Source of the DNA: Candidatus Buchananbacteria bacterium RIFCSPHIGHO2_02_FULL_39_17
GTDB taxonomy: Bacteria > Patescibacteriota > Patescibacteriia > Buchananbacterales > UBA6539
Direction of reading: 5' to 3'
Length of the DNA: 64,000 bases
Assembly (NCBI GenBank): GCA_001817425.1
Contig: MHII01000012.1
Coordinates: 77 to 64,076, forward strand
A program made the translations under genes and the position numbers. Each line of letters begins with the position of its first letter. Position 1 is the stretch's first letter. This document shows positions 36,810 through 54,537 of the stretch, in pieces. A model generated the notes under the pieces. It ran no database searches. It was given only the letters and a program-made list of their open reading frames with translations, and was not told where the DNA came from.

Positions 36810-36811
36810 AA

Positions 36812-37336: not shown

Positions 37337-38397
37337 ATAAATTTTTCTTTTTGTAAGCTTCTAAGGGCTAAACCGATGGCTGAAGTGTAAGATAAAATTT
37401 TATTTTTAGACAAGGAAATTTTTTTGTCTAAAGATAAATTATTTAGGGGATTTCCGATTTTAACCGGCAGGTTTAACATTTCTTTTAAAACTTCGTCAAT
37501 TTTAAGAAAATTAGCGCCACCGCCACAAATAATGATTTCACTAATTTCATTGCCGCTGACAAAATTAGTTTTATAGAAAATAATCGCTTTTTTTATTTGT
37601 TCGGCTAAATTATTTATTGATCCCATCAAAACTTTAAGCATCGCCCCTTCGCATTTTTCTCGATCAAGGCCGCAGACCAGTTTTGCTTTTTCGGCTTTTT
37701 TTTCATCCAGTTTGAGGGTTTTAGCGATTGCCTCAGTGATTTTATTACCTGAAATCGGCAGGCTGACCGTGAACTGAATCGTATTTTTGTCAAAAATAAT
37801 TAAGCCGGTTCGCATGGCTCCAAAATCGATAATAATCTTTGCCCCTTTTTCTTTTTCGGAAAGTAAACTTCTGACAATGGCGGCCGCTTCGATTTCTAAA
37901 ACATACGGCGTTAAGCCGCAATTCTGTAGAACTGAATAATAAGAATCAACTAGATTTTTCGGGGTGGCGCCAACTAAAACAGAAGACCAGTCACTGCCTT
38001 GTTCCAAGAGTTGCCAATCAAAATAGATTTCCTCTGGAGCAAGAGGAATATGATTAATAATTTCTTTTTCAATCAATTTTGGGGTTTCCTCCAAATTTTT
38101 TTTATTAATTTGGTTTGGTAGAGTTAGAACTTTAATAAAAGTTTTTGTTTCCGGCAAAACGGAAATAACATTTTTTGTTTTTATTTTTTGGCCAGCCGCA
38201 GTTTTAATCAGTTGTTGAATTAGTTTTATTAATTTATCCGGCTGTTGAATTTCACCATTAATAACAATATCATTTGGTACCGCTGATTCATTATAAGAAG
38301 TCAAGATTATTTTTTTGCCGATTTTTTTGCATTTTGCCAGTCTGATTGTTCGATCACTAAGATCTAAACCAAACGCCTGTTGCATTTGTCCAAACAT
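37333..38397 (-). CDS. pilM: Type IV pilus assembly protein PilM (actin-like ATPase fold)
   Basis: GLDLSDRTIRLAKCKK, IIIDFGAMRTGLIIFD and ICGGGANFLKIDEVL are PilM/FtsA-like motifs. Confidence 0.8.
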   Translation of the reverse strand: MFGQMQQAFGLDLSDRTIRLAKCKKIGKKIILTSYNESAVPNDIVINGEIQQPDKLIKLIQQLIKTAAGQKIKTKNVISVLPETKTFIKVLTLPNQINKKNLEETPKLIEKEIINHIPLAPEEIYFDWQLLEQGSDWSSVLVGATPKNLVDSYYSVLQNCGLTPYVLEIEAAAIVRSLLSEKEKGAKIIIDFGAMRTGLIIFDKNTIQFTVSLPISGNKITEAIAKTLKLDEKKAEKAKLVCGLDREKCEGAMLKVLMGSINNLAEQIKKAIIFYKTNFVSGNEISEIIICGGGANFLKIDEVLKEMLNLPVKIGNPLNNLSLDKKISLSKNKILSYTSAIGLALRSLQKEKFI

Positions 38398-38485
38398 AGG
38401 TTAAATTTTATTTCAATTATCTAAAATTATACCAATTAATTTATATCGCGGCAAATTTTAACGCCTGTATCCTAAATTCCTAACT

Positions 38486-38516
38486 CTCCGCCAGAGGCGG
38501 ACTCGCCTCTGGCGAG
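38486..38516. repeat. GC-rich double-hairpin element, family 2, inverted copy
   Basis: ctccgccagaggcggactcgcctctggcgag. Its reverse complement aligns with 5527-5560, sharing an identical second hairpin and a covarying first stem. Confidence 0.7.
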
Positions 38517-39731
38517 CTAATATTGTTCTTCCCAGTGATCAATTTGAATAATTGGTGCGGTGGTATTATAGCTTGGGTCAATTACCGGCAAAAAATTTTC
38601 CGGAACATAATTTAAAATAATTGAGCCGCCGCTGGCGGTGATCCGAGCGTCAAAACCAGTTAAGCTACCGTTAACCGTAAAATTTGTGCCCGAACTGGTT
38701 ATTTCCAAATCATCAGCCGCGTAAATTAGCCCATTAATAGTAATAGTGCCGCCGGCAGTGGTAAATTCCACGTCGTCTTTTGATAAAAGGCCGCCACCAT
38801 AGATTGGGTCAGCCGTCACCGTCACAATTTGGCCGGAGAGAGTGATTTCAATTTCTTCATCGGCGATTAAAACACCGTTAATCGTAAAATTTTTGCCGAT
38901 GATTTCCGCTTCACCCGTGACATAAATAATGCCATTTAAAGTCGTACCGCTAGGCAAATTTTTAAATTGAGTTTCGGTATAAACAGTGCCAGAGGCAAGA
39001 GCGCGGTTTTTCCAAGAATTCGGATCAGTTGAATCAAAATCAATTTGCAGCATATCAATCGTGGTCGTCGGCGCGCTTTGATAGCTCGTACCGTTTAGAG
39101 TTAAACGGCCGCCGGAAACAACATTAATCACATTGCTGGCGCTGACGATGCCGTCATTGACCACTACCTCCGCCCCTTGAACTTTAAAGACCTGATTGGC
39201 GTGGAGGCGGCCGCCGTTAGCCGTTAAGACAATGCCTGAACCAGTAAAAGTAAAATTGCCGTTTTGCTGGGAACCGCGGCCGCCAGCAAAAGAACTAAAT
39301 TCCCATTCTTCACTGCTACCAGTCGGCCGGGTGATATAAGATTTAACTACTCGTTGGGAAATGTTATCGGCAATTTGATAAGTTGAGGTGGAGATAATCC
39401 AAGCTTCAGCCGTGGCTGTGTTTTCTACTCTGACTTGATAACTGGCGTTCGTCTCGCCAAAAATATTTGTCCGGCTGATATTATTCGCGCTGCTTAAGGT
39501 GCCAGCGATAAAAGCATTTTTGGTTGCTTGATTGTTTTGAATTTTCCAAATCATTTCATTAATGCCGGTTTCCGCCAAATAATAATTTTTTGTCGCCAAA
39601 GATTGAACCACGGAAATCTTATTTTCCGAATTGGTTAATGACAAAAGATAAGAACCAGTCATTAAAAGAGCGGTTAAAGTTAAAATGGAAACGATTAAGA
39701 CAAAGCCCTGATTTTTTGTTTTTTTTGTCAT
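38517..39731 (-). CDS. Large prepilin-type (type IV pilin-like) protein
   Basis: N-terminal KNQGFVLIVSILTLTALLMTGSYLL is the class III signal plus hydrophobic helix, followed by a ~370 aa beta-rich domain. Confidence 0.6.
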   Translation of the reverse strand: MTKKTKNQGFVLIVSILTLTALLMTGSYLLSLTNSENKISVVQSLATKNYYLAETGINEMIWKIQNNQATKNAFIAGTLSSANNISRTNIFGETNASYQVRVENTATAEAWIISTSTYQIADNISQRVVKSYITRPTGSSEEWEFSSFAGGRGSQQNGNFTFTGSGIVLTANGGRLHANQVFKVQGAEVVVNDGIVSASNVINVVSGGRLTLNGTSYQSAPTTTIDMLQIDFDSTDPNSWKNRALASGTVYTETQFKNLPSGTTLNGIIYVTGEAEIIGKNFTINGVLIADEEIEITLSGQIVTVTADPIYGGGLLSKDDVEFTTAGGTITINGLIYAADDLEITSSGTNFTVNGSLTGFDARITASGGSIILNYVPENFLPVIDPSYNTTAPIIQIDHWEEQY

Positions 39732-39732
39732 T

Positions 39733-40311
39733 TTAGTTGTTTCTGGGATTGATTACGGCTTTCATTTCAATTTGTTCAGCGCCTTTATTTAAATTTAAAA
39801 TAATATTAATATTTGAATTGCCAAAAAAATCAAGGCTGGTAAAATTTTCACCGATTATTTTTTCTTCTAAGATATTTTGAGTCGGCGCGCCAAAGGAATC
39901 AACATCATTCCAGTGAACGTAAATTGAGGGATCAGCATCAAAGTAATAAACAATAGTTTGTCGTTTTAATTGGTTATTGGCCAGTAAATATTTGAGGTAT
40001 TGGATTTGGGAAGTCGTGTGGCCGTCCTCAAATTCCAGCTCGTGGGCTAATAAGTTAGGGTCGGTGTCATCGGACGGAAGCGTGGTGACAATTTCAGCCG
40101 CTTGACGAATTTCCCGGGACATTAAATCAAGAACAATTCTGGCGTTTTGCGATAATTCGGCTTTAATATTGCCCTTGCGGAAAACTTTCTGGTTTAAAAG
40201 AAAAGTTGAGCTGACAACCATAATAATTAGCATGCCGATAATTACCGCAATTAGAAGTTCGGTTAAAGTGAACCCCGCACCTTTTAGATATATATTTTGT
40301 GATTTAGCCAT
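39733..40311 (-). CDS. Prepilin-type N-terminal cleavage/methylation domain protein (pseudopilin)
   Basis: KGAGFTLTELLIAVIIGMLIIM, G-F-T-L-x-E. Confidence 0.65.
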   Translation of the reverse strand: MAKSQNIYLKGAGFTLTELLIAVIIGMLIIMVVSSTFLLNQKVFRKGNIKAELSQNARIVLDLMSREIRQAAEIVTTLPSDDTDPNLLAHELEFEDGHTTSQIQYLKYLLANNQLKRQTIVYYFDADPSIYVHWNDVDSFGAPTQNILEEKIIGENFTSLDFFGNSNINIILNLNKGAEQIEMKAVINPRNN

Positions 40312-40398
40312 TTAAAACAAATGAAAATATTAATATTGAAAAATTATTTTAAACGAATTATCTAAAGCGCGAAGCGCAATATCTAAAAGGTGCGGGGT
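40271..40398. repeat. Long-range inverted repeat around the start of prepilin gene 39733-40311
   Basis: Arm 40271-40290 aaccccgcaccttttagata lies in the coding sequence for YLKGAGFT. Arm 40379-40398 tatctaaaaggtgcggggtt is its perfect 20-bp complement. Spacer ~88 bp. Confidence 0.8.
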
Positions 40399-40856
40399 TA
40401 AAAATCAGAAATAGCTGAACTTAATTGGGTTGATTTTTCCGAGGTGCCAACTGTTGAGGGCCAAAAAACCGTTACCGTAATTTTTTTCAGTCCAGTATCG
40501 TTGGCGCTAACATTAAAATTACTGTCAAGATATTCAACAATTGTCTGTCTTTGAAAAGCGTAATAAAAATCAGTCGGATCACTTGATAATCTTTGTTTGG
40601 CTTCAATCGTGCCAGTGCTGATATTGTCGTAGCCTAGGCTGATGACTTCTTCAATTTTTGCCACGGCTAAATTAGAGGCGGTAGTTAATCTTTGGGCATC
40701 GCCGGTGATTTTCAAGCTTAAAGGGAAAATTTGAACCACGGCAAAAAGGCCAACCATTAAAATCATTGTGGCAATGGCCGCTTCAATAATGGTAAACCCC
40801 GCACTATGTTGGCGTAAGTTATTTTTGTCAATTTTTATAAATGATTTTTTAAACAT
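40398..40856 (-). CDS. Prepilin-type N-terminal cleavage/methylation domain protein (pseudopilin)
   Basis: RQHSAGFTIIEAAIATMILMVGLFAVVQIF. Confidence 0.65.
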   Translation of the reverse strand: MFKKSFIKIDKNNLRQHSAGFTIIEAAIATMILMVGLFAVVQIFPLSLKITGDAQRLTTASNLAVAKIEEVISLGYDNISTGTIEAKQRLSSDPTDFYYAFQRQTIVEYLDSNFNVSANDTGLKKITVTVFWPSTVGTSEKSTQLSSAISDF

Positions 40857-40922
40857 TACTATTTTTTTGATTATTCTTTATGAATTTTGGTATCTACTGA
40901 ATTAACGCCAACATAGTGCGGG
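40797..40922. repeat. Long-range inverted repeat around the start of prepilin gene 40398-40856
   Basis: ccccgcactatgttggcg (40797-40814, codes RQHSAG) and cgccaacatagtgcgggg (40905-40922) are an 18-bp perfect inverted repeat. The 90-bp spacer contains the ATG. Confidence 0.8.
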
Positions 40923-40936
40923 GTAAACCCTTGTTT

Positions 40937-41419
40937 TTAATCAATAACTTCAACATAGCCTGATGGTTTGATGTTTATCGTGGATATTTGACTTCTGGTG
41001 TTAGTCAAGGTAATTGAGCCGGTTTCCGCCACCCCGCCTGTCGGATTGAAACTGACTAAATCATTAGTCAGGCCAGAGATTTGACTGATGGAAACTTCAG
41101 TGTCTAAATTAACTTCTTTATTGACGTTACTGGTTTCCGAATTAACGATTTGATATTTTTTAGTTAGGGGAAAGAGTTTGAGCTGATAAATTTTTTGTTC
41201 CGTGACAGCTAATTGCTGGGTAAGCCGTAAATTGGTGGCTAAGACCCGAGCCTCACTTTTTAATTTGGTGTTTTTTTGGTAGTTGACAAAAAGCGGGGCG
41301 CTAATAATTGAAATAAAAGCGATAATACCTAAAACCGCAGCAAGCTCAGTAATCGTAAACCCCGCACTTTGTTGGCGTAGGTAATTTTTGTTTATTCTTT
41401 TGAAAATATTTTTAACTAT
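40937..41419 (-). CDS. Prepilin-type protein; reading frame intact but no ATG start (ATA at the aligned start position)
   Basis: Manual minus-strand translation gives IVKNIFKRINKNYLRQQSAGFTITELAAVLGIIAFISIISAPLF...GYVEVID*. It aligns codon for codon with MFKKSFIKIDKNNLRQHSAGFT of the neighbouring gene. It is absent from the ORF track because it lacks ATG. Confidence 0.45.
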   Translation of the reverse strand: MVKNIFKRINKNYLRQQSAGFTITELAAVLGIIAFISIISAPLFVNYQKNTKLKSEARVLATNLRLTQQLAVTEQKIYQLKLFPLTKKYQIVNSETSNVNKEVNLDTEVSISQISGLTNDLVSFNPTGGVAETGSITLTNTRSQISTINIKPSGYVEVID

Positions 41420-41486
41420 TTATCATTTATTAATTTATTTTTTGAACCTAAAATTTTGAGGAATAAATGCCAACATAGTGCGGGGT
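41360..41486. repeat. Long-range inverted repeat around the start of the prepilin reading frame 40937-41419
   Basis: ccccgcactttgttggc (41360-41376) against gccaacatagtgcgggg (41470-41486), 16 of 17 complementary. Spacer ~90 bp. Confidence 0.7.
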
Positions 41487-41533
41487 AAATCCTTTTTAAT
41501 TTATTTTGATCTATCGTCATTAAACTTTAACGC

Positions 41534-42613
41534 TTAAATTTGTTGGCTTAAGGAATAAATCGGCATAATGATGGCTACGGCCATACCACCGACGCCAATG
41601 CCTAGAACAACCATTAACAGCGGTTCAATAATTGATGGCAGATTTTCCATAGTTTGGGCGACATCATCTTCATAAAAAATTGCTGATTCTTCCAAAATAT
41701 CATCCAAGGCGCCAGTTTCTTCGCCGACGGCAATCATTTGTAAAACAACCGGCGGGAAAAGTTTAAGATGAGGTTTGAGTGATTCTTTAATGCTAATTCC
41801 TTTTTTGATTTTTTCTTTAGCAATGAGGAGGGCTTCCTGATACAAAGCGTTGCCTAAAACGCGGGAAGTAATTTCAAAAGATTGAACAATCGGGATGTCG
41901 GTTTTTAAAAGTGAGCTTAAAGTTCGGCAGAATCTTGCCAGATTAACTTTTTTAATAATTGAGCCGGCAACTGGGGTTTTAATCAGGAAAGAGTGAAATT
42001 GTTTTTTTCCGCCCGGGGTGGCGACAAAACGATTAAAAATAATGATTAATACCGCCAGGCCAATTAAGACAAAAATTCCGTACTTTAAAACAAACTCACT
42101 GCTAAAAATTAGAATTCGGGTCGCGAGAGGCAAGGCGACATTGAGTTCCTTAAAAACTCCGGAAATCGTCGGAATGACATAGATGAGCATCAGAATACCG
42201 ATAATAACCATCATGGCCATGACGATTGAAGGGTAGATCATGGCGCCTTTAACTTTAGCAATAATCTCGTGATCTTTTTTCATTTGGACAAATAATTCTT
42301 TTAAAACATCCTCTAATTTACCAGAAGCCTCGCCCGCTTTAACCATATTAATAAAAAGTTCGCCAAAAATTTTTTGATATTTCTCCAGACCAAGGGAAAG
42401 CAAATTGCCTTTTTCCACGCCTTGTTGCAGATCAACTAAAATTGTTTTGAATGTTTTTGAGGTGGTCTGCTCCGCTAAAGTTTTTAAAGCGACCGAAAGC
42501 GATATGCCTGACTTGAGCATCACTCCAAGCTGTTGAACAAAAAAAATCTTTTGCGACAAAGTAATTTTTCGCGGTTTAGTGATCCACTGAATTATTTTAT
42601 TGTTATTAGCCAT
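41534..42613 (-). CDS. pilC: Type IV pilus / type II secretion platform protein PilC (GspF family)
   Basis: Two GspF-type repeats, 3 TM helices, ~359 aa, adjacent to pilB. Confidence 0.85.
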   Translation of the reverse strand: MANNNKIIQWITKPRKITLSQKIFFVQQLGVMLKSGISLSVALKTLAEQTTSKTFKTILVDLQQGVEKGNLLSLGLEKYQKIFGELFINMVKAGEASGKLEDVLKELFVQMKKDHEIIAKVKGAMIYPSIVMAMMVIIGILMLIYVIPTISGVFKELNVALPLATRILIFSSEFVLKYGIFVLIGLAVLIIIFNRFVATPGGKKQFHSFLIKTPVAGSIIKKVNLARFCRTLSSLLKTDIPIVQSFEITSRVLGNALYQEALLIAKEKIKKGISIKESLKPHLKLFPPVVLQMIAVGEETGALDDILEESAIFYEDDVAQTMENLPSIIEPLLMVVLGIGVGGMAVAIIMPIYSLSQQI

Positions 42614-42620
42614 TTTTTAA

Positions 42621-44408
42621 TTAATCTTTGGTTACCCTCAAGACTTCCTCGATGGTGGTAATTCCTGATTTTGATTTAATAAAGCCATCCTCTAAAATTG
42701 TGAGCATGCCTTGGTCTTTTGCCATTTTTTGGATTTCTTTCGCCGGTGAATTTTTGAGAATTAATTCAGAAATTTCTGAACTGACATTCAAGACTTCGTA
42801 AATGCCGATTCGGCCGCGATAGCCGTTCTGGTTGCATTTTTTACAGCCTTTGCCGCGATAAAAAAGCAGGGATTCCTTGGTTTGTTTTTTCGTGACCAGA
42901 TTTTCTTTTTCCAGAGTTTCTAAAACTAAAGCAAAATTAATTTGTTTTTCCAACTCCGCCAATTCGGTTTTATTTAAAGTATAACTTTCCATACAGTCTT
43001 GGCAGATGCGTCGAACCAGCCGTTGAGCCACAATCATAATGCAAGTGGAAGCGACTAAAAAGGCGGGTACGCCCATTTCGCTTAAACGAGGCAAGGTGGT
43101 GGGCGCGTCATTGGTATGGAGAGTAGAAAGAACTAGGTGGCCGGTCAGGGACGCATGAATAGCAATTTCAGCGGTTTCGTTGTCCCTGATTTCACCCACC
43201 ATAATGATATTTGGGTCTTGACGCAGAAAGGACCGGAGGGCGGAAGCGAAAGTATAGCCGATTTTTGGATTGACTTGAGTTTGATTTAAACCCGGCATCC
43301 GGTATTCAATCGGATCTTCAATCGTGGTGATATTAATTTCCGGCTTATTTAAAATATTTAAAACCGCATAAAGGGTGGTGGTTTTTCCTGAACCAGTCGG
43401 GCCGGTGACCAAAATTAGACCATGGGGTTTTTTAATATTTTTTCTGACGACTTCTAAGGCGCGTCTTTGAAAACCAAGCTGCTCTAAGCTAATGACGCTG
43501 GTTTGCTCGTTTAAAGCGCGCAAGACTACTTTTTCCCCGTCGTAAGTTGGGATAATGGAAACACGGAAAGAAACTTTATATTCGTTGGTCGCGACTTTGA
43601 AACGGCCGTCTTGAGGCAGGCGGTGCTCGTCTAATTTAAGATTGGAAAGAATTTTAATTCTGGCGACGATGCCGGCGTGGACAGATTTAGGCAAAGTCAT
43701 CACTGGGCGCAAGACGCCGTCAATCCGATAGCGGACCACAACTTCTTTTTCGGTTGGTTCAATATGAATATCTGAAGCATTTTCTAAAATGGTGTATTCC
43801 AGGAGCGTGTCAACAATCCGAATCACTGGTAAGTCATGGGCTAATTCTTTTAACTTTGAGCCGCCTTCAGCTTCTTCACCAGTTTTTTCTTGATCCTTAG
43901 TTAATTCCTGAAACTCGGCTTTTAAGCCTTTATGATAAAGTTTTATTACTTCATTTAAACTCTCCGGCGTGGTTAAATAAATTTTTATCTCCAAGCCGGT
44001 TTTTTTTGATAAAAATTCAAAAAGTTGCAAATCAGTTGGATTTAAAGTGGCAATTTTTAATTCGGTGTCCGTTTTATTAAAAGCGATAATTTTATGGGTG
44101 GCGGCAAGCGGTTCAGGGATTAAAAATAAGATATCTTTTCTAACGGTTTCATTTTTTAAATTAATAAACGGCAAATTATAGTAATTTGCCGCTATTTGGT
44201 AGAGCTGTTCTTGACCGATGACTTTTTGGCTAACTAAGTAGTCCTCAAGGGTTTGGTTTCTTTTTTTTGCCTCTTCAAGATAAAGATCAAGCTCTTGAGC
44301 GCCAACGGTTTTGGTTTCAAGCAAGACTTTTTTTAATTGATCTTCTTTGAACATATTTTTGATTAAAGCAATCATTAAATCATGAAAACTATTGCGGTTT
44401 AGACACAA
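42621..44408 (-). CDS. pilB: Type IV pilus assembly ATPase PilB (GspE family)
   Basis: Walker A GPTGSGKTTTLYAVL, Walker B/Asp-box and His-box, and C-terminal CxxC pairs (CQDC...CKKC). Confidence 0.9.
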   Translation of the reverse strand: MCLNRNSFHDLMIALIKNMFKEDQLKKVLLETKTVGAQELDLYLEEAKKRNQTLEDYLVSQKVIGQEQLYQIAANYYNLPFINLKNETVRKDILFLIPEPLAATHKIIAFNKTDTELKIATLNPTDLQLFEFLSKKTGLEIKIYLTTPESLNEVIKLYHKGLKAEFQELTKDQEKTGEEAEGGSKLKELAHDLPVIRIVDTLLEYTILENASDIHIEPTEKEVVVRYRIDGVLRPVMTLPKSVHAGIVARIKILSNLKLDEHRLPQDGRFKVATNEYKVSFRVSIIPTYDGEKVVLRALNEQTSVISLEQLGFQRRALEVVRKNIKKPHGLILVTGPTGSGKTTTLYAVLNILNKPEINITTIEDPIEYRMPGLNQTQVNPKIGYTFASALRSFLRQDPNIIMVGEIRDNETAEIAIHASLTGHLVLSTLHTNDAPTTLPRLSEMGVPAFLVASTCIMIVAQRLVRRICQDCMESYTLNKTELAELEKQINFALVLETLEKENLVTKKQTKESLLFYRGKGCKKCNQNGYRGRIGIYEVLNVSSEISELILKNSPAKEIQKMAKDQGMLTILEDGFIKSKSGITTIEEVLRVTKD

Positions 44409-45223: not shown

Positions 45224-46267
45224 ATGGCCACTAATTTTTTTATTATTAAAATTTTTCTTTTGACAACAGTTTCTTTTATTTTGACTTTAATTTGGACACC
45301 ATTTTTGACCCATCTTTTGTATAAGTTCCGGCTCGGCAAAGGCATCAGGGATGAAAAAGTTGCCCCGATTTTTGCCATGATTCATAAAAAGAAAGCGGGA
45401 ACGCCGACGATGGGCGGCGTTTTGGTTTGGGGGACAACTTTATTTTTAATTATTTCAATTTTTTATTTATCAAAAATTTTTGACGGGATTTTTAGTGGCT
45501 TGAATTTTTTATCTCGGAGCGAAACTCTTTTGCCCTTAGGGGCGTTAATTGCTTCAGCGATCGTTGGTTTAATTGATGATTTGTTTGACATTTGGCGGAT
45601 GGGCAAGGATGGCGGTGGCCTTAGAATGCGTCATCGCTTTATGATTTATGGATTGATTGCCGGGGTTGGCGCTTGGTGGTTTTTCTATAAATTGGGTTGG
45701 ACGATTTTATATGTGCCATTTTTTGGTTATTTGGATATTGGTCTTTGGTATATTCCTTTTTTTATTTTTATCATCATTGGGACCGCTCATGCCGTGAATT
45801 TAACTGACGGTTTGGACGGTTTGGCCGGCGGGACACTCTTAGCCGCTTTTAGCACTTACGGCGCAATTGCCTTTGCCCTTGGCCGTTACGATTTAGCAAC
45901 TTTTTGCGGGGTGATTGCCGGCGCGCTTTTGGCTTTTTTGTGGTTTAACATTAACCCGGCGCGGTTTTTCATGGGTGACACCGGTTCAATGTCACTTGGG
46001 GTCACTTTAGGCATTATTGCCATGCTCACTAACGCCGCTTTGCTTTTGCCAATTATTGGTTTTATTTTCGTGGTTGAAACAGTTTCGGTTTTAATTCAGA
46101 TGTTCTGGAAAAAAGTCTTTGGTCATAAACTTTTTCTTTCTTCGCCGCTTCATCATCACTTGGAGGCTATTGGCTGGCCAGAGCCAAAAATTGTGATGCG
46201 TTTTTGGGTCATTGCCGCGGTTTCATCAATTATTGGTTTAATTTTGTTTTTGGTGGATAAAGTGTAG
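45224..46267 (+). CDS. mraY: Phospho-N-acetylmuramoyl-pentapeptide transferase
   Basis: NAVNLTDGLDGLAGG, FMGDTGSMSLG and HHHLE motifs. Confidence 0.9.
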   Translation: MATNFFIIKIFLLTTVSFILTLIWTPFLTHLLYKFRLGKGIRDEKVAPIFAMIHKKKAGTPTMGGVLVWGTTLFLIISIFYLSKIFDGIFSGLNFLSRSETLLPLGALIASAIVGLIDDLFDIWRMGKDGGGLRMRHRFMIYGLIAGVGAWWFFYKLGWTILYVPFFGYLDIGLWYIPFFIFIIIGTAHAVNLTDGLDGLAGGTLLAAFSTYGAIAFALGRYDLATFCGVIAGALLAFLWFNINPARFFMGDTGSMSLGVTLGIIAMLTNAALLLPIIGFIFVVETVSVLIQMFWKKVFGHKLFLSSPLHHHLEAIGWPEPKIVMRFWVIAAVSSIIGLILFLVDKV

Positions 46268-46271
46268 AATT

Positions 46272-49007
46272 ATGAATAAAGAAGAAAGTAAAAAACAGAT
46301 TAAAAGGCTAGTGGAAAAATATCAAAATTTTACCCCAAGCCAAAAAAGAGAATGCAATGAATCAATGATTTGCAAAGATTTTGTTTTGCCTCTTTTTCAG
46401 GCGCTTGGCTGGGACGTTTATAATAATTTTGGCCACGAAGTGGCTTCGGAAGCGCAAATTTCAGGTAAAAGAGCCGATTATGCTTTTTATGTTAATGACG
46501 TGATAAAATTTTTTGTTGAAGCAAAAAAACCGTCGGTTGATTTACGGGAAGAAAAATTAGCCGAGCAGGCGGTATTTTATGCTTGGCACAAAAGCGTGCC
46601 TTGGGCAATATTGACGAATTTTGAAGTGATTAAAGTTTTTAACGCCGAATGGGACGAACCGGATGTGGAAAGAAGTCTAATTTTTGAAATCAATTACAAA
46701 GATTTTTTGCAAGACGAAAAATTGTGGTGGCTTTCCAAAGAATCAATGGAAAAAGGCGAGTTAGATCAATATGCGCAGGAAAATTTTAAAAAACCGAAAA
46801 GAGAACCAGTTGATAAGCAATTAGCTAACGATTTAGTCAGATGGCGGACAGCGTTATTTAGCGATCTTAGTCAATGGAATCGCGATAAAAATTTGGGTGA
46901 AAAAAATATTGCCAAGGCCGTCCAACAGTTATTGGACAGCTTTATTTTTATTCGCACGACTGAAGACAGAAAAATTGAAGGGGAACGGCTTCGGGAACTA
47001 GTCAGAAATTGGGAGGAAGAAAAAAAGACAATTAATTTAGGAGATGAGCTAAAAAAGTTATTCCAGCACTATAATGACGGTTATGATAGCAGATTATTTG
47101 AATTATCAGTCTGCGATAAATTGGAATATGAAGACAGCTTGTTTGCCGATGTAATCAAGCAACTATATAAAAATAAAAAAGGCATCCGTTATGATTTTGC
47201 GTCAATTAATGCTGATGTTTTAGGCAGTATTTACGAACAATATTTGGGACAAATTCAGGAAAGCGAAAAAAATAAAAGTAAAAGAAAATCTCAAGGGATT
47301 TATTATACGCCAAGATACATTGTTGATTATATTGTCAAAAATACTTTAGGCGAATTATTGAAAGGCAAGTCTGGCTTTGAGGCTTCAAAGATTAAAATAT
47401 TAGATCCGGCCTGCGGGTCAGGGTCATTTTTGATTAAAGCTTTTGAAGTTATAGATAATCATATTCAGAGAGAAAATAACCAGATAAACGCGCAAAAATT
47501 CACCAATTACGCCAGAAAGGTCGCGATTTTAACGGCAAATATCTATGGCGTTGACTTGGATGAAGAGGCCGTGGAAATTGCTCAATTAAATTTATTGCTA
47601 AAAGTTCTTGAACAAAGAGAGAAATTGCCAAATTTAGGACATAATATTGAAAACGGCAATTCTTTAATCTCTGGTGAACCAAAAGAATTGGAGAAATATT
47701 TTGGCAAGGGCTGGAAAGCCAAAAAGCCGTTTAACTGGGAAGAAAAATTTTCCGGTGTATTTAAGCAAGGCGGATTTGATGTGATTATTGGTAATCCGCC
47801 TTATATTGATTCGGAGGAGATGGTTAAAAATGATAAAAATTTTAGAATTTATTGCACTGAATTTTATGAAGGTGCTAAGGGGAATTGGGATATTTTTTGT
47901 ATATTTGTTGAAAAAGCATTAAACCTGTTGAGGGTAGGAGGTTATTTAGGAATGATTATTCCTAATAAGATACTATCTGCCGATTATGCTGATTCCGTTA
48001 GAAAAATGATAGAAGAATATTCAGTAGTTTCTATAAATGATTATTCAGGTATAAAAGTTTTTGGCGCCAGTGTCTATCCTATCGTTTTAATAATACAGAA
48101 ATTAAAACCTATACAAGATCATAAAATTATTGTCAATTCTTATACTATAGATAAGGAAGTTATTAAAATAGAGGATAGTAAAAAAATTAGTCAAACGATG
48201 CTGAAAGAATACAAAAATAGTTGGTCTCCTATATTTAATTATTCTGAGAATGAAAATTTTATTGATAGAATTACAAAAAGTAGTCAGAGATTAAAAGAAA
48301 TTTGTGATATTCACGGTGCCGCTACAGTAAATGAGGCCTATGAATTAAAAAAGATAGTCAAAAATTTAAAAGATGAAGATAAAGATGAATACTTTAAATT
48401 TATTAACACTGGAACTATTGATAGATATACCTCTCTGTGGGATCACCAAAAAACCCAATATATCAAAGCAAGCTATCTTAGGCCAGTAGTTATAAAGAAA
48501 AAATTACGTGAATTATTGCCTAACAGATATTTAGATTCAACAAAAAGTAAATTGATTGTAGCTGGTATGACAAAAAAGATGGAGTGTTTTTTTGACGAGC
48601 GTGGAGAATATTTAGCAGGTAAATCCACTACAATAATCGAAAACAATAAATTAGATCTTAAATTTATTTTAGCATTATTAAATAGTAAGTTGTTGACATT
48701 TATTTTTAAAAATATTTTTAAATCGCTATCTTTGCAAGGAGGGTATCTAAGGATAGGCGCCCCTCAAATTAAAGAGTTGCCAGTCATTATGGCGAATAAA
48801 AATGAAATGTCGGTAATTATAAAATTAACTGATAAAATTTTCATTTTAAACAAAAAATTTCAAACAATAGACCCTATTTTATACAAGGAAGAATATGAAG
48901 AAAAGAAAAAAGAAATTGAAAAAACCGACCGAGAAATTGACCAAAAAGTTTATGAGCTTTACGGCTTGATGGCGGAGGAGATTAAGATCGTGGAAGGAAA
49001 AAAATAA
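46272..49007 (+). CDS. MmeI-family type IIL/IIG restriction-modification enzyme (PD-ExK nuclease, gamma-class N6-adenine methyltransferase and TRD fused)
   Basis: The N-terminus ADYAFY...FVEAKKP gives a D-X10-E-X-K nuclease motif. Methyltransferase motif I is DPACGSGSFL and motif IV is GNPPY. Length is 911 aa; MmeI is about 919. The C-terminal half (~47850-48900) is visibly more AT-rich than the N-terminal half. Confidence 0.75.
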   Translation: MNKEESKKQIKRLVEKYQNFTPSQKRECNESMICKDFVLPLFQALGWDVYNNFGHEVASEAQISGKRADYAFYVNDVIKFFVEAKKPSVDLREEKLAEQAVFYAWHKSVPWAILTNFEVIKVFNAEWDEPDVERSLIFEINYKDFLQDEKLWWLSKESMEKGELDQYAQENFKKPKREPVDKQLANDLVRWRTALFSDLSQWNRDKNLGEKNIAKAVQQLLDSFIFIRTTEDRKIEGERLRELVRNWEEEKKTINLGDELKKLFQHYNDGYDSRLFELSVCDKLEYEDSLFADVIKQLYKNKKGIRYDFASINADVLGSIYEQYLGQIQESEKNKSKRKSQGIYYTPRYIVDYIVKNTLGELLKGKSGFEASKIKILDPACGSGSFLIKAFEVIDNHIQRENNQINAQKFTNYARKVAILTANIYGVDLDEEAVEIAQLNLLLKVLEQREKLPNLGHNIENGNSLISGEPKELEKYFGKGWKAKKPFNWEEKFSGVFKQGGFDVIIGNPPYIDSEEMVKNDKNFRIYCTEFYEGAKGNWDIFCIFVEKALNLLRVGGYLGMIIPNKILSADYADSVRKMIEEYSVVSINDYSGIKVFGASVYPIVLIIQKLKPIQDHKIIVNSYTIDKEVIKIEDSKKISQTMLKEYKNSWSPIFNYSENENFIDRITKSSQRLKEICDIHGAATVNEAYELKKIVKNLKDEDKDEYFKFINTGTIDRYTSLWDHQKTQYIKASYLRPVVIKKKLRELLPNRYLDSTKSKLIVAGMTKKMECFFDERGEYLAGKSTTIIENNKLDLKFILALLNSKLLTFIFKNIFKSLSLQGGYLRIGAPQIKELPVIMANKNEMSVIIKLTDKIFILNKKFQTIDPILYKEEYEEKKKEIEKTDREIDQKVYELYGLMAEEIKIVEGKK

Positions 49008-49011
49008 AAAT

Positions 49012-49554
49012 ATGAAACCGCAGGAAAACAATTTTGCTTATATTGACGGAGCCAATTTGCATAATGCTATTAAAGAATTAGGCTGGCAGCTCGACTATGT
49101 CAGGTTTAGAATTTGGCTTTCCGAAAAGTACGGTGTGAAAAGGGTTTACATTTTTATTGGTCTCATTGCTAAATATAAGGATTTATATACTTATTTACAG
49201 GAATCAGGTTTTACCCTTATCTTTAAAGAAGTAGTGTATGACGGCGGTGGGAAACCAAAAGGGAATTGTGACGCTGATTTAGTATTGCAGGCGGCGCGTG
49301 ATACTTATGAAAATAATTTTGAAAAGGTAATTATTGTCGCCAGTGATGGTGATTATGCTAGCTTAGTAAAGTTTTTATTAGAAAAATGGAAAATTTTAGC
49401 CTTGTTGTCGCCGAGTGAGGAAAAGAAATGCTCAATCCTTTTAAAAAGAACGGGAGTTAAAATCGCTTACCTTAAAGATCAGCAATCTATTTTAAGTTAT
49501 GGAAAAGAAAAAGCCCCCGGTAGGGACGGAACCCCACAAGGGTCTTTTTCGTAA
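49012..49554 (+). CDS. NYN-domain (LabA-like) nuclease
   Basis: YIDGANL, DADLV and ASDGDY acidic motifs in NYN order. 180 aa. Confidence 0.65.
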   Translation: MKPQENNFAYIDGANLHNAIKELGWQLDYVRFRIWLSEKYGVKRVYIFIGLIAKYKDLYTYLQESGFTLIFKEVVYDGGGKPKGNCDADLVLQAARDTYENNFEKVIIVASDGDYASLVKFLLEKWKILALLSPSEEKKCSILLKRTGVKIAYLKDQQSILSYGKEKAPGRDGTPQGSFS

Positions 49555-49596
49555 TGATTAATTATAGTATATCACATTTAAAATATTTGTCAAGGT

Positions 49597-51111
49597 ATGA
49601 ATTTCACGGGTAGAAAAGTGACGGTCATGGGTTTAGGGCTCCACGGTGGTGGAGTCTCTTGCGCTAACTGGCTGATAAAGCACGGCGCTAAAGTGACGGT
49701 GACTGATTTGAAAACCAAAGAAGAGCTTAAGCCATCTTTAGATAAGTTAGCGATCAAACGATCAAGCGATCAAACGATCAAGTTAGTGCTTGGATATCAC
49801 CGTGAAAATGATTTTAGAAATGCTGATCTAATTGTTCAAAACCCGGGTGTGCCAAGGGAATCAAAATATTTGGCAATTGCCAAAAAATCTGGCGTGCCAA
49901 TTGAAAATGAAGCCAGCCTTTTTTTTAAATATTGTCCGGCAAAAATTATCGGCGTCACAGGAACGCGTGGCAAATCAACCACGTCAAGCTTAATTTATCA
50001 ACTTCTAAAAGTTAAAAGCTATCCCGACGTAAAGTCGGGATCCCGACCGAAGCGTCGGGACAAACTACAAGCTCGTAAAGTCTGGCTGGCCGGACTGCCC
50101 CAAAAGCCGATGTTAGAAATTTTAGATCAAATTAAGCCTAATGATTTGGTGGTTTTAGAGCTTTCCAGCTGGCAATTAGAAATTTTAGGCGAACAAAAAT
50201 TAAGTCCGCAAATCGCGGTTCTGACTAATATTTATCCCGATCATTTAAATCGCTATTTGGGTATGGCTGATTACGTTAAAGCTAAAATCAACATTTTTCA
50301 GTGGCAAAATAAAAATGATTTTGTCGTTTTGAATTTAGATAATTTTGAAACAAAAAAACTTGGCGGAAAAGTCAGGGCCAAAAGATTTTTGTTTTCCAAA
50401 AAATATTTTGCCGAACAAAACGGCAGCTTTATTAAAAATAAACAAATTTTTTTCCGAAAAGACGGCAAAACTTACAAACTTACTAACTTATCAACTTATA
50501 AACTTATTGGCGAGCACAATTTAGAAAATTTTTTGGCCGCGATCACGGTTGCCGGAATTTTTGGTGTTAAACCAAAAGAAATAACGGCGGCTTTGAATAA
50601 GTTTAAGGGTTTGCCGGGGCGAATTGAGTTAATCAGGGAAAAAAACGGCGTAAAATATATTAATGACACAACCGCGACCACGCCTGATGCCACCATGGCC
50701 GCTCTAAAAATATTTTTAGAGCGGCAAATCCCAAATTCTAAATCCCAAACCCTAAGTAAATTCAAAATTCAAAATTCAAGATTCAAAATTATTCTGATAG
50801 CTGGAGGAGCGTCAAAAAATATTCCTATTCAAAAATATCAAGAGTTAGCCGCAATGATAAAAAAAACTTGTAAGGCCGTGATTCTATTTGAGGGGGAAGG
50901 GAGCGATCAGATGGCCAAAGATTTAAAGGCCATAAAATTTAGAGAATTAGTGACCAATGTTTTAGGGATGTCTTCAGCGGTTGGCATTGCTAATAATTTT
51001 TCGCAAACAGGCGATATCATTTTACTCTCTCCGTCTTCAGCTTCGTTTGGTTTGTTTATTAATGAATTTGATCAGGGTGATCAATTTAATAAGATAGTTT
51101 CTGATATTTAA
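49597..51111 (+). CDS. murD: UDP-N-acetylmuramoylalanine--D-glutamate ligase
   Basis: KVTVMGLGLHGGGVSCANWL, the P-loop GVTGTRGKSTTSSL, and the Mur ligase C-domain. Three in-frame repeat insertions: 49745-49778, 50011-50071 and 50757-50793. Confidence 0.85.
   Translation: MNFTGRKVTVMGLGLHGGGVSCANWLIKHGAKVTVTDLKTKEELKPSLDKLAIKRSSDQTIKLVLGYHRENDFRNADLIVQNPGVPRESKYLAIAKKSGVPIENEASLFFKYCPAKIIGVTGTRGKSTTSSLIYQLLKVKSYPDVKSGSRPKRRDKLQARKVWLAGLPQKPMLEILDQIKPNDLVVLELSSWQLEILGEQKLSPQIAVLTNIYPDHLNRYLGMADYVKAKINIFQWQNKNDFVVLNLDNFETKKLGGKVRAKRFLFSKKYFAEQNGSFIKNKQIFFRKDGKTYKLTNLSTYKLIGEHNLENFLAAITVAGIFGVKPKEITAALNKFKGLPGRIELIREKNGVKYINDTTATTPDATMAALKIFLERQIPNSKSQTLSKFKIQNSRFKIILIAGGASKNIPIQKYQELAAMIKKTCKAVILFEGEGSDQMAKDLKAIKFRELVTNVLGMSSAVGIANNFSQTGDIILLSPSSASFGLFINEFDQGDQFNKIVSDI
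50011..50071. mobile_element. GC-rich double-hairpin element, family 1, inserted in frame in murD
   Basis: aaaagctatcccgacgtaaagtcgggatcccgaccgaagcgtcgggacaaactacaagct has two hairpins sharing the tcccgac/gtcggga stem and ctacaagct at its edges. It encodes KSYPDVKSGSRPKRRDKLQA, which is absent from canonical MurD. Confidence 0.7.
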
Positions 51112-52348: not shown

Positions 52349-52389
52349 TTAATCTTGATTTTTTCTCTCAAATTTGCTATTTTTAAAGC

Positions 52390-53628: not shown

Positions 53629-54537
53629 ATGTCTGACGACCAGTTAAAGAATAATAATTTAAAGCAAGAAAATATTCAAATTAAGAGAAAAACAGTCGGT
53701 TTAGCCGTTGGCGGCGGGTTTATCCGTTCAACGGCGGCCATTGGCGCCATTGAGGTCTTGCAGGAAAATAATATTCCGATTGATTTGGTTTCTGGTTGCA
53801 GTTCCGGGGCGGCGGTGGCCAGCGCCTATGCCGCTGGGACTCTAAGGCAATTTAAAGAGAGATTAATCCGCGGTCCGCGGCGAGAATATTGGCGAATTAT
53901 TTTTGAGCCAACCGTTCCGAAAGAGGGCTTACTGAAGGGAGAGCGCAATCGTAGATTTTTTGAAGAATTTGTCGGCGATAAAAATTTTTCTGATTTGCAA
54001 AAAAAGCTTTTAATTTTGACTACGGATTTAATCAGTATGAAAGAGGTGGTAGTTGATTCCGGACGAGTCGGACGGGCGATTCAGGCCGCGACTTCGGTTC
54101 CCGGAGTTTTTGTTCCAGTGAAGGATGGTAGTCGAATTTTAGTTGATGGCGGTAATTTTAATATTATCCCCTCAAAAATTTTATATCAAAAAGGCGTTGA
54201 TTATGTAATTGCCATTCATACGGCCCAACTGCCAAATCTAATTACTCGTTTTTTGTCAAACTTTAAACATCTTCATAAAAGAGACCAGATAATTGAACAG
54301 AAAAAAATTAAAAATCTGGATTTAAATATTTTGCAAATTGTTTTGCGAGCTGTAAAAATTTCCAGTGGTCAAATTAAGAATTTTTATTATTCAAATTTTC
54401 CTTACGATGCCTTGATTATTCCAGATATCACCGGGATAAAGCGCTGGCATATTGGCCGAGTCAACTATTTAGTTAATCAGGGTCGGAAAGCGGCTGAAGC
54501 GATGCTGCCGAAAATAAAAAGCGATTTAGGATTATAA
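53629..54537 (+). CDS. Patatin-like phospholipase
   Basis: Oxyanion GGGFIRS, nucleophile GCSSG (GxSxG), and the catalytic Asp in VDGGN. Confidence 0.8.
   Translation: MSDDQLKNNNLKQENIQIKRKTVGLAVGGGFIRSTAAIGAIEVLQENNIPIDLVSGCSSGAAVASAYAAGTLRQFKERLIRGPRREYWRIIFEPTVPKEGLLKGERNRRFFEEFVGDKNFSDLQKKLLILTTDLISMKEVVVDSGRVGRAIQAATSVPGVFVPVKDGSRILVDGGNFNIIPSKILYQKGVDYVIAIHTAQLPNLITRFLSNFKHLHKRDQIIEQKKIKNLDLNILQIVLRAVKISSGQIKNFYYSNFPYDALIIPDITGIKRWHIGRVNYLVNQGRKAAEAMLPKIKSDLGL

What the first reader, a model, noticed from the sequence alone, without database searches (positions are those of the whole stretch)
46272..49554. MmeI-like type IIL RM enzyme plus NYN nuclease inserted inside the conserved dcw cluster, with a compositionally distinct C-terminal half
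A 911-aa single-chain enzyme with a PD-ExK nuclease, an N6A methyltransferase (DPACGSGSFL, NPPY) and a TRD, followed by a LabA-like NYN nuclease, sits between mraY and murD.

The 3' ~1 kb of the RM gene (~47850-48900) is much more AT-rich than the 5' half. That is consistent with a recently swapped target-recognition domain. Pairing of a type IIL enzyme with an NYN-domain protein has not been described as a defence module to my knowledge; the NYN protein could be an accessory RNase or an independent toxin. The location inside an essential operon would stabilise the island.
Basis: partly seen in the sequence, partly recalled or inferred. Interest (0 to 1): 0.55.

Follow-up and report, generated by a model that had tools for sequence, protein, structure and literature searches.

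The report
Restriction enzyme gene inside cell-wall operon
A single-gene restriction-modification enzyme and an unrelated small nuclease gene sit in a changeable "cargo slot" between two cell-wall genes of a tiny groundwater bacterium. The AT-rich end of the enzyme gene is its swappable DNA-recognition cassette, a known way for such enzymes to change target, so the locus is a clear example, not a new kind of system.

Summary
In this Candidatus Buchananbacteria (CPR) window, a 911-aa fused nuclease-methylase-TRD gene (46272-49007) and a 180-aa NYN gene (49012-49554) lie between mraY and murD. Close relatives have mraY directly followed by murD, or a different cargo gene there.

The enzyme is a solitary type IIG enzyme with MmeI-like architecture. 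It is not an MmeI-family member by sequence; CamA, BseCI, BrxX, BpuSI and DrdV are all closer.

The AT-rich stretch is real (GC 0.279 vs 0.354; GC3 Fisher p = 7e-4). It coincides with a cassette (47808-48865) that is unalignable in the orthologous gene of a related genome (L145), while both flanks are 82-93% identical. A specificity-cassette swap is therefore directly supported. Low GC itself is family-wide (95% of 55 homologues), so it is not a mark of recency.

The NYN gene is not a conserved partner. None of 58 loci carrying its homologues has this RM family or a dcw context. Only 2 of 86 other RM-homologue loci have an NYN gene, though both are directly downstream and each is a different NYN subfamily. 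That is suggestive (P about 0.01) but sporadic.

The slot is polymorphic, so "stabilised by an essential operon" is not supported.

Verdict: new member of a known kind, modest interest.

The parts
45224..46267 (+). mraY, the upstream boundary of the cargo slot
   Evidence: Pfam Glycos_transf_4 and MraY_sig1. It is 80-86% identical to MraY of other Buchananbacteria-like genomes. The stop codon lies 4 nt before the RM start.
46272..49007 (+). Solitary type IIG restriction-modification gene (911 aa) fusing nuclease, methyltransferase and TRD
   Evidence: Pfam. PADLOC REase_MTase_IIG 2e-120. AF2 model with pLDDT 84.9. Fold matches to CamA, BrxX, BseCI, BpuSI and MmeI. The identical protein is on 10 contigs from several Rifle samples.
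46272..46781 (+). N-terminal PD-(D/E)xK nuclease domain (aa 1-170), with catalytic D69, E83 and K85
   Evidence: HSDR_N and HSDR_N_2 hits. D69, E83 and K85 are invariant in 44 homologues. Their positions parallel D70, E80 and K82 of MmeI (PMC2731913).
46782..47201 (+). Helical connector (aa 171-310)
   Evidence: All-helical in the AF2 model. It is 90% identical to the L145 orthologue.
47202..47807 (+). N-terminal lobe of the gamma-class N6-adenine methyltransferase (aa 311-512), containing motif I DPACGSGSF (47403-47429) and motif IV NPPY (47793-47804)
   Evidence: N6_Mtase and Eco57I. The motif residues are invariant. It is 89.6% aa identical to L145.
47808..48865 (+). Exchangeable specificity cassette (aa 513-865): C-terminal methylase lobe, TaqI_C-type TRD (Pfam hit at 48492-48785) and the first C-terminal helix. 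This is the AT-rich stretch.
   Evidence: There is no blastn similarity to the orthologous gene in L145 and aa identity is 24%, while both flanks are 82-93% nt identical. GC is 0.279 against 0.354, and GC3 is 0.22 against 0.33. Domain-wise identities across the family are mosaic.
48866..49007 (+). Conserved C-terminal helices of the RM protein (aa 866-911), the right-hand homology arm of the cassette
   Evidence: 82% nt and 83% aa identical to L145. Conserved across the family. Helices H872-896 and H901-908 in the model.
49012..49554 (+). Free-standing LabA-type NYN (PIN-like) nuclease gene (180 aa)
   Evidence: Pfam NYN at 45.1 bits. PDB 2qip at 1.7e-4. The acidic residues D12, D87, D89, D112 and D114 are invariant in 28 homologues. 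More than 3400 homologues, 55-80% identical across Parcubacteria lineages. Their neighbours are heterogeneous.
49597..51111 (+). murD, the downstream boundary of the slot
   Evidence: MurD-like_N, Mur_ligase_M and Mur_ligase_C. In L155 and L157 murD starts 7 nt after the mraY stop.

Best explanation
The locus is a polymorphic cargo slot between mraY and murD in the dcw operon of a Candidatus Buchananbacteria genome. It holds two independent accessory genes.

(1) A solitary type IIG restriction-modification enzyme.
- Inferred mechanism, from the family: one polypeptide reads a site with its TaqI-like TRD. It N6-methylates an adenine with its gamma-class methylase. It cuts unmodified DNA at a distance with its N-terminal PD-ExK nuclease.
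- Shown: the stretch from just after NPPY to the first C-terminal helix (47808-48865) is a cassette that has been exchanged between otherwise orthologous genes.
- Inferred: the exchange happened by homologous recombination between the conserved blocks flanking the cassette. This re-targets restriction and modification together.

(2) A LabA-type NYN nuclease gene.
- It has an intact acidic active site and belongs to a highly conserved subfamily found at unrelated positions in other CPR genomes.
- It is most likely a stand-alone Mg-dependent RNase. It is not a dedicated partner of the RM enzyme.

Both genes are packed into the operon with 4-nt spacers and no + strand terminator-like site in the RM-NYN and NYN-murD spacers, so they are probably co-transcribed with mraY and murD (inferred).
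For: Identity of the genes.

Insertion:
- Fully syntenic relatives L155 (MraY 83%) and L157 (80%) have mraY followed by murD after 7 nt.
- L156 has an Ldh_2 gene in the same slot.

Cassette swap:
- L145 carries pilB / orf / mraY / RM / NYN / murD.
- Its nt identity to the window is 0.82-0.93 over 46348-47697, absent over 47808-48865, and 82% over 48866-49007.
- Family-wide mosaicism: P0131 is 90/90/69/17/18/69% identical per segment. P0128, P0132 and P0134 are 48-56% identical in the N-terminus but 68-70% in the TRD.

The RM core was shared more recently than the host genes. Third-position identity is 0.71 and four-fold identity 0.65 in RM aa 1-512. The corresponding values are 0.535 and 0.42 in mraY, 0.49 and 0.40 in pilB, and 0.39 and 0.44 in murD.

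NYN independence:
- In 58 species-level loci with NYN homologues (53-75% identical), none is in a dcw cluster and none is next to this RM family.
- Their immediate neighbours fall in 91 and 72 different Pfam families, none seen in more than 3 loci.
- The 922-kb genome with an empty slot keeps its NYN homologue about 160 kb away from the dcw cluster.
- Close RM homologues at other sites lack NYN.
- In the 80 metagenome loci, the subfamily HMM and Pfam on the two downstream complete ORFs found no NYN; the broader profiles later found one, L065. Sixteen viral-contig homologues have none adjacent.
Against: NYN genes do recur next to this RM family more often than random placement predicts.
- In 832 kb of 86 unique RM-homologue loci, the only two NYN genes (L145, L065) are both immediately downstream of, and co-directional with, the RM gene. 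P is about 0.012 if slots were random.
- The L145 slot holds a non-orthologous NYN, 26% identical by hhalign. That is hard to explain by pure chance.
- A window-type NYN also sits inside a type I RM operon in L012.

Limits of the evidence:
- No activity, recognition site, methylation pattern or transcript has been measured.
- Which of the two cassettes is the derived one is unknown.
- The best cassette match in the databases is only about 70% identical, so no donor is identified.
Confidence: 0.72

Rival explanations
1. The type IIG enzyme and the downstream NYN nuclease form a functional two-gene defence module. The NYN protein would act as an exchangeable accessory effector, for example an RNase that triggers abortive infection or degrades phage transcripts when restriction fails.
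For: - Three loci have this RM family directly followed by a co-directional NYN gene, each from a different NYN subfamily: the window, L145 and L065.
- Both NYN genes found in 832 kb of RM loci are at the +1 position, P about 0.012.
- The RM-NYN spacers are 4-12 nt, which suggests co-transcription.
- A window-type NYN is embedded in a type I RM operon.
- PADLOC holds an NYN model that matches weakly, 6.5e-5.
- PIN-like genes coupled to type I RM have been reported (PMC5499597).
Against: - 84 of 86 other RM-homologue loci lack NYN, and so do 16 viral-contig homologues.
- The nearest relatives of the window's RM (P0122, P0128, P0137, P0143) and of L065's RM (P0233) lack it.
- None of 58 NYN-homologue loci carries this RM family. 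Their neighbours are mostly housekeeping genes.
- L145 is not independent of the window, because it is the same slot.
Confidence: 0.13
2. The NYN gene is a vertically inherited housekeeping RNA-processing nuclease of CPR bacteria that merely happens to lie here. Only the RM gene would then be the insertion.
For: - Conservation is extreme: 55-80% identity over thousands of sequences, with an invariant active site and a conserved C-terminal tail.
- It is mostly single-domain, and single-copy within the 64-kb window.
- Its neighbours are often housekeeping genes such as aaRS, gyrB, topoisomerase, EngA and Pth.
- Bacterial NYN genes have been linked to tRNA/rRNA processing neighbourhoods (PMC5499597).
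Against: - Its position differs between close relatives: the dcw slot here against about 160 kb from the dcw cluster in the 922-kb genome.
- The slot is empty in L155 and L157.
- The closer-in-slot relative L145 has a different NYN subfamily there.
- Tandem paralogue arrays exist in L045, L049 and L057.
- The best non-self hit is only 80% identical, while named lineages such as Kerfeldbacteria and Kuenenbacteria still reach 73-74%. That flat profile fits lateral spread better than a clock.
Confidence: 0.12
3. The AT-rich 3' half reflects only relaxed constraint or lysine/asparagine/isoleucine-rich composition of TRDs. No exchange of the domain has occurred.
For: - The TRD part has lower GC than the N-terminal part in 95% of 55 homologues, mean -0.045. 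The window's -0.075 is at the 16th percentile.
- The region is the least conserved part of the family alignment.
- Other ordinary genes in the window are equally AT-rich.
Against: - Between orthologous genes in the same slot, the cassette is unalignable at 24% aa identity, while both flanks are about 83-90% aa identical.
- The N-terminus and the TRD have different nearest relatives.
- GC3 also drops, p = 7e-4.
Confidence: 0.03

Closest known systems
Type IIG / IIC single-chain restriction-modification enzymes (Eco57I, BpuSI, DrdV, BsaXI and the MmeI group)
   Same: The domain order matches: N-terminal PD-ExK nuclease, helical connector, gamma-class N6A methylase with DPACGSGSF and NPPY, and a C-terminal TRD. 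Supporting hits are PADLOC REase_MTase_IIG 2e-120, Pfam Eco57I 5e-40, fold matches to BpuSI 3s1s and MmeI 5hr4, and profile hits to DrdV, BsaXI, BpuSI and MmeI.
   Different: No characterised enzyme is close. The MTase-TRD module is nearest to stand-alone methylases CamA and M.BseCI. The recognition site, cleavage distance and SAM dependence are unknown.
MmeI family (type IIL; Morgan et al. 2008/2009, PMC2582602 and PMC2731913; structure PMC4833311)
   Same: It is a solitary gene with no companion methylase. The catalytic D-E-x-K sits at almost the same positions (D69/E83/K85 against D70/E80/K82). One TRD is shared by R and M, so a TRD change re-targets both activities.
   Different: It fails the family's sequence criterion. 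There is no phmmer hit at 1e-3, and the profile E-value is 2.6e-8 over aa 372-906 only. Pfam MmeI_N, MmeI_hel, MmeI_TRD and MmeI_C do not match, and the TRD is TaqI_C type. One-strand modification has not been tested.
TRD reassortment in type I HsdS subunits and type IIB/IIG enzymes. From my own knowledge: AloI/PpiI/TstI domain swaps (Jurenaite-Urbanaviciene et al. 2007) and Sau1 hsdS TRD shuffling. See also PMC5399793 and PMC3874165, listed.
   Same: A variable recognition module is flanked by conserved sequence that can serve as recombination arms. The family is mosaic, with N-terminus and TRD having different nearest relatives.
   Different: The exchanged unit begins right after motif IV (NPPY). 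It therefore includes the C-terminal lobe of the methylase as well as the TRD. The swap is seen between orthologous genes fixed in a dcw operon slot.
LabA-like NYN proteins (Pfam PF01936, cluster NYN.COG1432 of Matelska et al. 2017, PMC5499597; structure 2qip)
   Same: It is a single NYN domain with the conserved acidic residues. Its function is unknown, as for the whole cluster.
   Different: This is a very tightly conserved CPR subfamily with a conserved C-terminal tail, EKAPxxDGTxxGSFS. That paper saw PIN-like genes with type I RM operons but none with type II systems. Here an NYN gene follows a type IIG gene in 3 loci.

Membership tests
Type IIG (fused R-M) restriction-modification enzymes | Endonuclease and methyltransferase domains in one polypeptide | tested here: met
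   HSDR_N nuclease domain plus N6_Mtase/Eco57I in one 911-aa ORF. PADLOC REase_MTase_IIG 2e-120 over aa 1-710.
Type IIG (fused R-M) restriction-modification enzymes | Intact catalytic motifs: PD-(D/E)xK, SAM-binding motif I and NPPY motif IV | tested here: met
   D69, E83, K85, D378-F386 and N508-Y511 are invariant or nearly invariant in 44 homologues.
Type IIG (fused R-M) restriction-modification enzymes | SAM-stimulated cleavage at a fixed distance from an asymmetric site | not testable with these tools
   This needs the purified enzyme or methylome data.
MmeI family (type IIL) | Significant similarity to MmeI (E < 1e-20) over the whole length (PMC2731913) | tested here: not met
   phmmer against PDB chains finds no MmeI hit at E <= 1e-3. 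The family profile scores MmeI 5hr4 at 2.6e-8 over aa 372-906 only, ranked behind CamA, BseCI, BrxX, TaqI, DrdV, BsaXI and BpuSI.
MmeI family (type IIL) | MmeI-specific domains (Pfam MmeI_N, MmeI_hel, MmeI_TRD, MmeI_C) | tested here: not met
   Only MmeI_Mtase matches (8e-13). The TRD is TaqI_C. MmeI_N is only faint or weak in some homologues.
MmeI family (type IIL) | Conserved PD-ExK residues aligned with D70, E80 and K82 | tested here: met
   D69, E83 and K85 are invariant. The positions are compared with PMC2731913.
MmeI family (type IIL) | No separate methyltransferase; the host is protected by methylation of one strand only | tested here: inconclusive
   No other methylase gene is adjacent; the neighbours are mraY, NYN and murD. 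The strandedness of modification cannot be tested here.
NYN domain nucleases (PF01936, LabA-like) | Match to the family model above the curated threshold | tested here: met
   45.1 bits against a cut-off of 24.2. Nearest structure is 2qip, E = 1.7e-4.
NYN domain nucleases (PF01936, LabA-like) | Conserved acidic metal-binding residues of the PIN-like fold | tested here: met
   D12, D87, D89, D112 and D114 are invariant in 28 homologues.
NYN domain nucleases (PF01936, LabA-like) | Nuclease activity and substrate | not testable with these tools
   No member of this cluster had been studied as a nuclease as of that 2017 review (PMC5499597).
Two-gene defence module (RM + accessory nuclease) | Conserved co-occurrence of the two genes across independent lineages | tested here: not met
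   None of 58 NYN loci has this RM family. 2 of 86 RM loci have an NYN gene, from different subfamilies. The nearest relatives lack it.
dcw (division and cell wall) cluster | Canonical order mraY-murD-ftsW-murG-murC-murB | tested here: met
   The window and L155-L157 share the order. Extra cargo occurs at the mraY|murD and ftsW|murG junctions, and a conserved patatin gene lies between murG and murC.

The most novel reading that the evidence does not exclude
Type IIG enzymes of this clade recruit interchangeable NYN (PIN-like) nucleases as a second effector. This would be a type II RM-plus-RNase defence module, a pairing the 2017 PIN-superfamily survey reported not observing for type II systems (PMC5499597). 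Three different NYN subfamilies are found directly downstream of the RM gene in three loci (window, L145, L065).
Probability: 0.12. Interest if true: 0.6.

Novelty: new member of a known kind. Interest (0 to 1): 0.3.

Why it matters
The locus gives a clean natural example of specificity-cassette exchange in a single-chain RM enzyme. Both breakpoints are mapped, just after NPPY and at the C-terminal helices. The two orthologous genes come from co-occurring groundwater CPR lineages. This could guide the engineering of new specificities, and it predicts different m6A motifs in the two populations.

It also shows that intergenic junctions of the conserved dcw operon in these reduced genomes act as cargo slots with rapid turnover. 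The RM core is less diverged at synonymous sites than the flanking essential genes. The conserved flanks may therefore help such cargo spread by homologous recombination, which is a different role from anchoring it (inference).

The sporadic RM-NYN adjacency is a lead, not a finding.

Tried and rejected
- Flanking direct or inverted repeats, att-like sites and integrase or transposase genes around the insert. Only chance AT-rich matches turned up. The genes abut mraY and murD with 4-42 nt spacers.
- Phase-variable simple repeats in the RM gene: none.
- Rfam families in the window: none. tRNA genes as integration targets: none.
- The NYN subfamily in viral contigs. The single-protein scan found nothing, and the alignment scan found one distant (25%) hit.
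- Viral-contig RM homologues next to NYN: none among the full-length ones.
- Literature search for NYN in Patescibacteria: no papers.
- GC as evidence of foreign origin. Rejected as an argument on its own, because the same drop is family-wide and other native genes are equally AT-rich.
- The possibility that the downstream proteins of other close RM homologues (L146 204 aa, L149 151 aa, L241 110 and 154 aa) are cryptic NYN domains. L146 and L149 have no Pfam hit; L241 has no hit on record or to the NYN profile.
- A second structure prediction, for NYN, was judged unnecessary because the Pfam and PDB sequence matches are clear.


Full report
**What is at the coordinates**

The window carries, all on the + strand:
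- mraY, 45224-46267
- a 911-aa ORF, 46272-49007
- a 180-aa ORF, 49012-49554
- murD, 49597-51111
- then ftsW, murG, a patatin-like gene, murC and murB.

The spacers are 4 nt, 4 nt and 42 nt. The identical 911-aa protein is found on 10 contigs from several Rifle aquifer samples. Public records name the source Candidatus Buchananbacteria, a CPR/Patescibacteria lineage.

**The large gene**

Pfam finds a type I-R-like PD-(D/E)xK N-terminus (HSDR_N, aa 51-129). It also finds an N6-adenine methylase of the Eco57I type (aa 314-646, E = 5e-40) and a TaqI_C specificity domain (aa 741-838). PADLOC's type IIG model matches at 2e-120.

In an alignment of 44 homologues, D69, E83, K85, DPACGSGSF (aa 378-386) and NPPY (aa 508-511) are invariant or nearly invariant. 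Both activities are therefore probably intact.

An AlphaFold model built on that alignment has pLDDT 84.9. By Foldseek it is closest to CamA, BrxX/PglX and M.BseCI, followed by the type IIG enzymes BpuSI and MmeI. A profile of the family scores the following:

| PDB protein | E-value |
|---|---|
| CamA | 3e-51 |
| M.BseCI | 7e-34 |
| BrxX | 8e-24 |
| M.TaqI | 2e-16 |
| DrdV | 5e-14 |
| BsaXI | 2e-12 |
| BpuSI | 1e-11 |
| MmeI | 2.6e-8 |

The single sequence gives no MmeI hit at E <= 1e-3.

Morgan et al. defined the MmeI family by E < 1e-20 with similarity along the entire length and conserved D70/E80/K82 (PMC2731913). Only the last criterion is met here. The gene is therefore a solitary type IIG enzyme that works like MmeI in architecture: one chain, one TRD and no companion methylase. 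It is not a member of that family. Whether it modifies one strand only cannot be tested here.

**The insertion**

The third homology search, with MraY, found many closer relatives (80-86% identity). Three of them are on long contigs with the same synteny: pilB on the minus strand, a small membrane ORF, mraY, ftsW, murG, patatin and murC.
- L155 (MraY 83% identical): murD starts 7 nt after the mraY stop.
- L157 (80%): the same.
- L156 (83%): a malate/lactate dehydrogenase-family gene (Ldh_2) occupies the slot.

So the RM and NYN genes are cargo in a polymorphic slot. The ftsW|murG junction is variable as well. No repeats, integrase, tRNA or other mobility signature flanks the insert. No + strand terminator-like site falls in the RM-NYN or NYN-murD spacers; the few weak + strand matches lie inside coding sequence. 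Co-transcription with the operon is plausible but only inferred.

**The AT-rich half and the swap**

Composition figures:
- GC is 0.354 over 46272-47807 and 0.279 over 47808-48865.
- GC3 is 0.33 against 0.22, Fisher p = 7e-4.

The decisive evidence is locus L145. It comes from the same aquifer study and carries pilB / orf / mraY / RM (913 aa) / NYN / murD. Compared with the window:

| Region | Similarity to L145 |
|---|---|
| mraY | about 0.73 nt identity |
| RM 5' part, 46348-47697 | 0.82-0.93 nt identity |
| 47808-48865 | no detectable similarity; 24% aa |
| Last 142 nt of RM | 82% nt identity |

It begins right after NPPY, so it contains the C-terminal methylase lobe, the TRD and the first C-terminal helix.

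Family-wide identities per segment are mosaic. P0131, the L145 protein, is 90/90/69/17/18/69% identical over six segments. P0128, P0132 and P0134 are only 48-56% identical in the N-terminus but 68-70% in the TRD.

The RM core is also less diverged at silent sites than the flanking genes:

| Gene or region | Third-position identity | Four-fold-site identity |
|---|---|---|
| RM aa 1-512 | 0.71 | 0.65 |
| mraY | 0.535 | 0.42 |
| pilB | 0.49 | 0.40 |
| murD | 0.39 | 0.44 |

The RM core has therefore been shared between these lineages after the hosts diverged. The cassette exchange is younger still. It is "recent" only in that relative sense. The best database match to the cassette is about 70% identical, and no donor is identified.

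Low GC is not in itself evidence of a swap. In 55 homologues the TRD part is lower in GC than the N-terminal part in 95% of cases, with a mean difference of -0.045. The window's -0.075 is at the 16th percentile. Two ordinary genes elsewhere in the window are equally AT-rich.

**The NYN gene**

It is a clear LabA-type NYN domain: 45.1 bits against a cut-off of 24.2, with 2qip as the nearest structure. Its acidic residues D12, D87, D89, D112 and D114 are invariant, and it has a conserved C-terminal tail. More than 3400 homologues exist, 55-80% identical across named Parcubacteria lineages.

Evidence from the NYN side:
- In 58 species-representative genomes, no homologue is in a dcw cluster and none is next to this RM family.
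- The immediate neighbours belong to 91 (upstream) and 72 (downstream) Pfam families, none recurring more than three times. Many are housekeeping genes.
- In the 922-kb genome whose mraY|murD slot is empty, the NYN homologue (74% identical) lies about 160 kb away from the dcw cluster.

Evidence from the RM side:
- In the 80 metagenome loci with RM homologues, the first subfamily HMM found no NYN gene.
- Pfam on the two downstream complete ORFs showed no recurrent NYN.
- The closest homologues lie at other sites and lack it: after truB, in a glycosylation cluster, in PemK/Bro-N/HEPN islands, and after efp.

So this is not a conserved two-gene module.

**What keeps the module idea alive**

A broader NYN profile, searched over 832 kb of 86 unique RM-homologue loci, finds exactly two NYN genes. 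Both are directly downstream of, and co-directional with, the RM gene:
- L145: a different subfamily, 26% identical by hhalign.
- L065: a third subfamily, Pfam 36.3 bits.

If the two genes were placed at random among 631 gene slots, P is about 0.012. L145 shares the slot with the window, so it is not independent. The nearest relative of L065's RM (P0233, 69% identical, in an archaeal context) has no NYN.

A window-type NYN also sits inside a type I operon, hsdM-NYN-orf-hsdS-orf-orf-hsdR, in a Kerfeldbacteria genome. The PIN-superfamily survey reported PIN-like genes coupled to type I RM but none with type II systems (PMC5499597).

My reading is that both are accessory genes that accumulate in the same permissive, operon-embedded slots. 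A functional link has perhaps a one-in-eight chance.

**Stabilisation**

The claim that an essential operon stabilises the island is not supported. Five related genomes show four different slot states, and the RM core itself has moved laterally. A better-fitting inference is that highly conserved flanking genes supply homology arms that let the cargo spread between related lineages. This is untested.

**Verdict**

- Right: the insertion, the architecture and the cassette swap.
- Wrong or unproven: MmeI-family membership, AT-richness as a sign of recency, a conserved NYN partnership, and stabilisation by the operon.

This is a new member of a known kind, a type IIG enzyme with TRD reassortment, in an unusual but not unprecedented place. 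Interest is 0.3.

Noticed in passing
window 49749-49782, 50468-50507, 50758-50790: murD contains short tandem repeats: 8 nt x3.9, 8 nt x5 and 7 nt x4.7. The protein is 504 aa, against 471-477 aa in relatives L155 and L157. The extra length appears to come from repeat-derived insertions.
   Followed up: partly
L155 10730-10990, L156 12070-12522, L157 10680-11262 (ftsW|murG junction); window 52349-52389: The ftsW|murG junction is a second variable slot in the same dcw cluster. L157 has ferritin/rubrerythrin plus a desulfoferrodoxin_N gene there. L155 and L156 have small minus-strand ORFs. The window has nothing.
   Followed up: no
window 53629-54537: A patatin-like phospholipase gene lies between murG and murC. 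It is conserved at that position in L155-L157, so it is a lineage-specific member of the dcw cluster.
   Followed up: no
L012 191-8869: A window-type NYN gene (73% identical) is embedded in a type I RM operon, hsdM-NYN-orf163-hsdS-orf281-orf184-hsdR, in a Kerfeldbacteria genome. It overlaps the end of hsdM by 14 nt.
   Followed up: partly
L045 8407-10510; also L049, L057, L019, L035: NYN paralogues occur as tandem arrays, three in a row in L045. The subfamily has a conserved C-terminal tail, EKAPxxDGTxxGSFS, of unknown role.
   Followed up: no
window 49566-49593 (minus strand): The best sigma-70-like match of the region is TTGACA-16-TATACT with an upstream TG, 11 of 12 matches. It lies in the NYN-murD spacer and points antisense into the NYN gene. 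It may be chance.
   Followed up: no
L152 6001-11173 and L153 6001-13448: Two RM homologues (N-terminus 76-77% identical to the window's) sit at a shared site after a lipase-like ~930-aa gene. The downstream cargo varies: PemK toxin, Bro-N, HEPN_AbiU2, S24 peptidase and a Cas4-like nuclease. This is another conserved insertion point with turnover.
   Followed up: no
L154 3447-5156: A truncated RM copy of 569 aa lacks the TRD. It is 82% identical to the window's N-terminal part and is overlapped by a convergent GTPase gene. It is probably a decayed copy.
   Followed up: no
window 23984-25357 (-) and 28180-29640 (+): The other two most AT-rich kilobases of the window encode a PEGA-domain protein and a protein with a PEP-utilising mobile domain. 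GC of about 0.27-0.29 is therefore not confined to the RM cassette.
   Followed up: partly
window 36246-44408 (minus strand): A type IV pilus / competence-type cluster (pilB, pilC, pilM, pilN, pilO and pilin-like genes) lies divergent from the dcw cluster. The arrangement is conserved in all relatives examined. It may be relevant to DNA uptake and hence to the lateral exchange seen at the slot.
   Followed up: no
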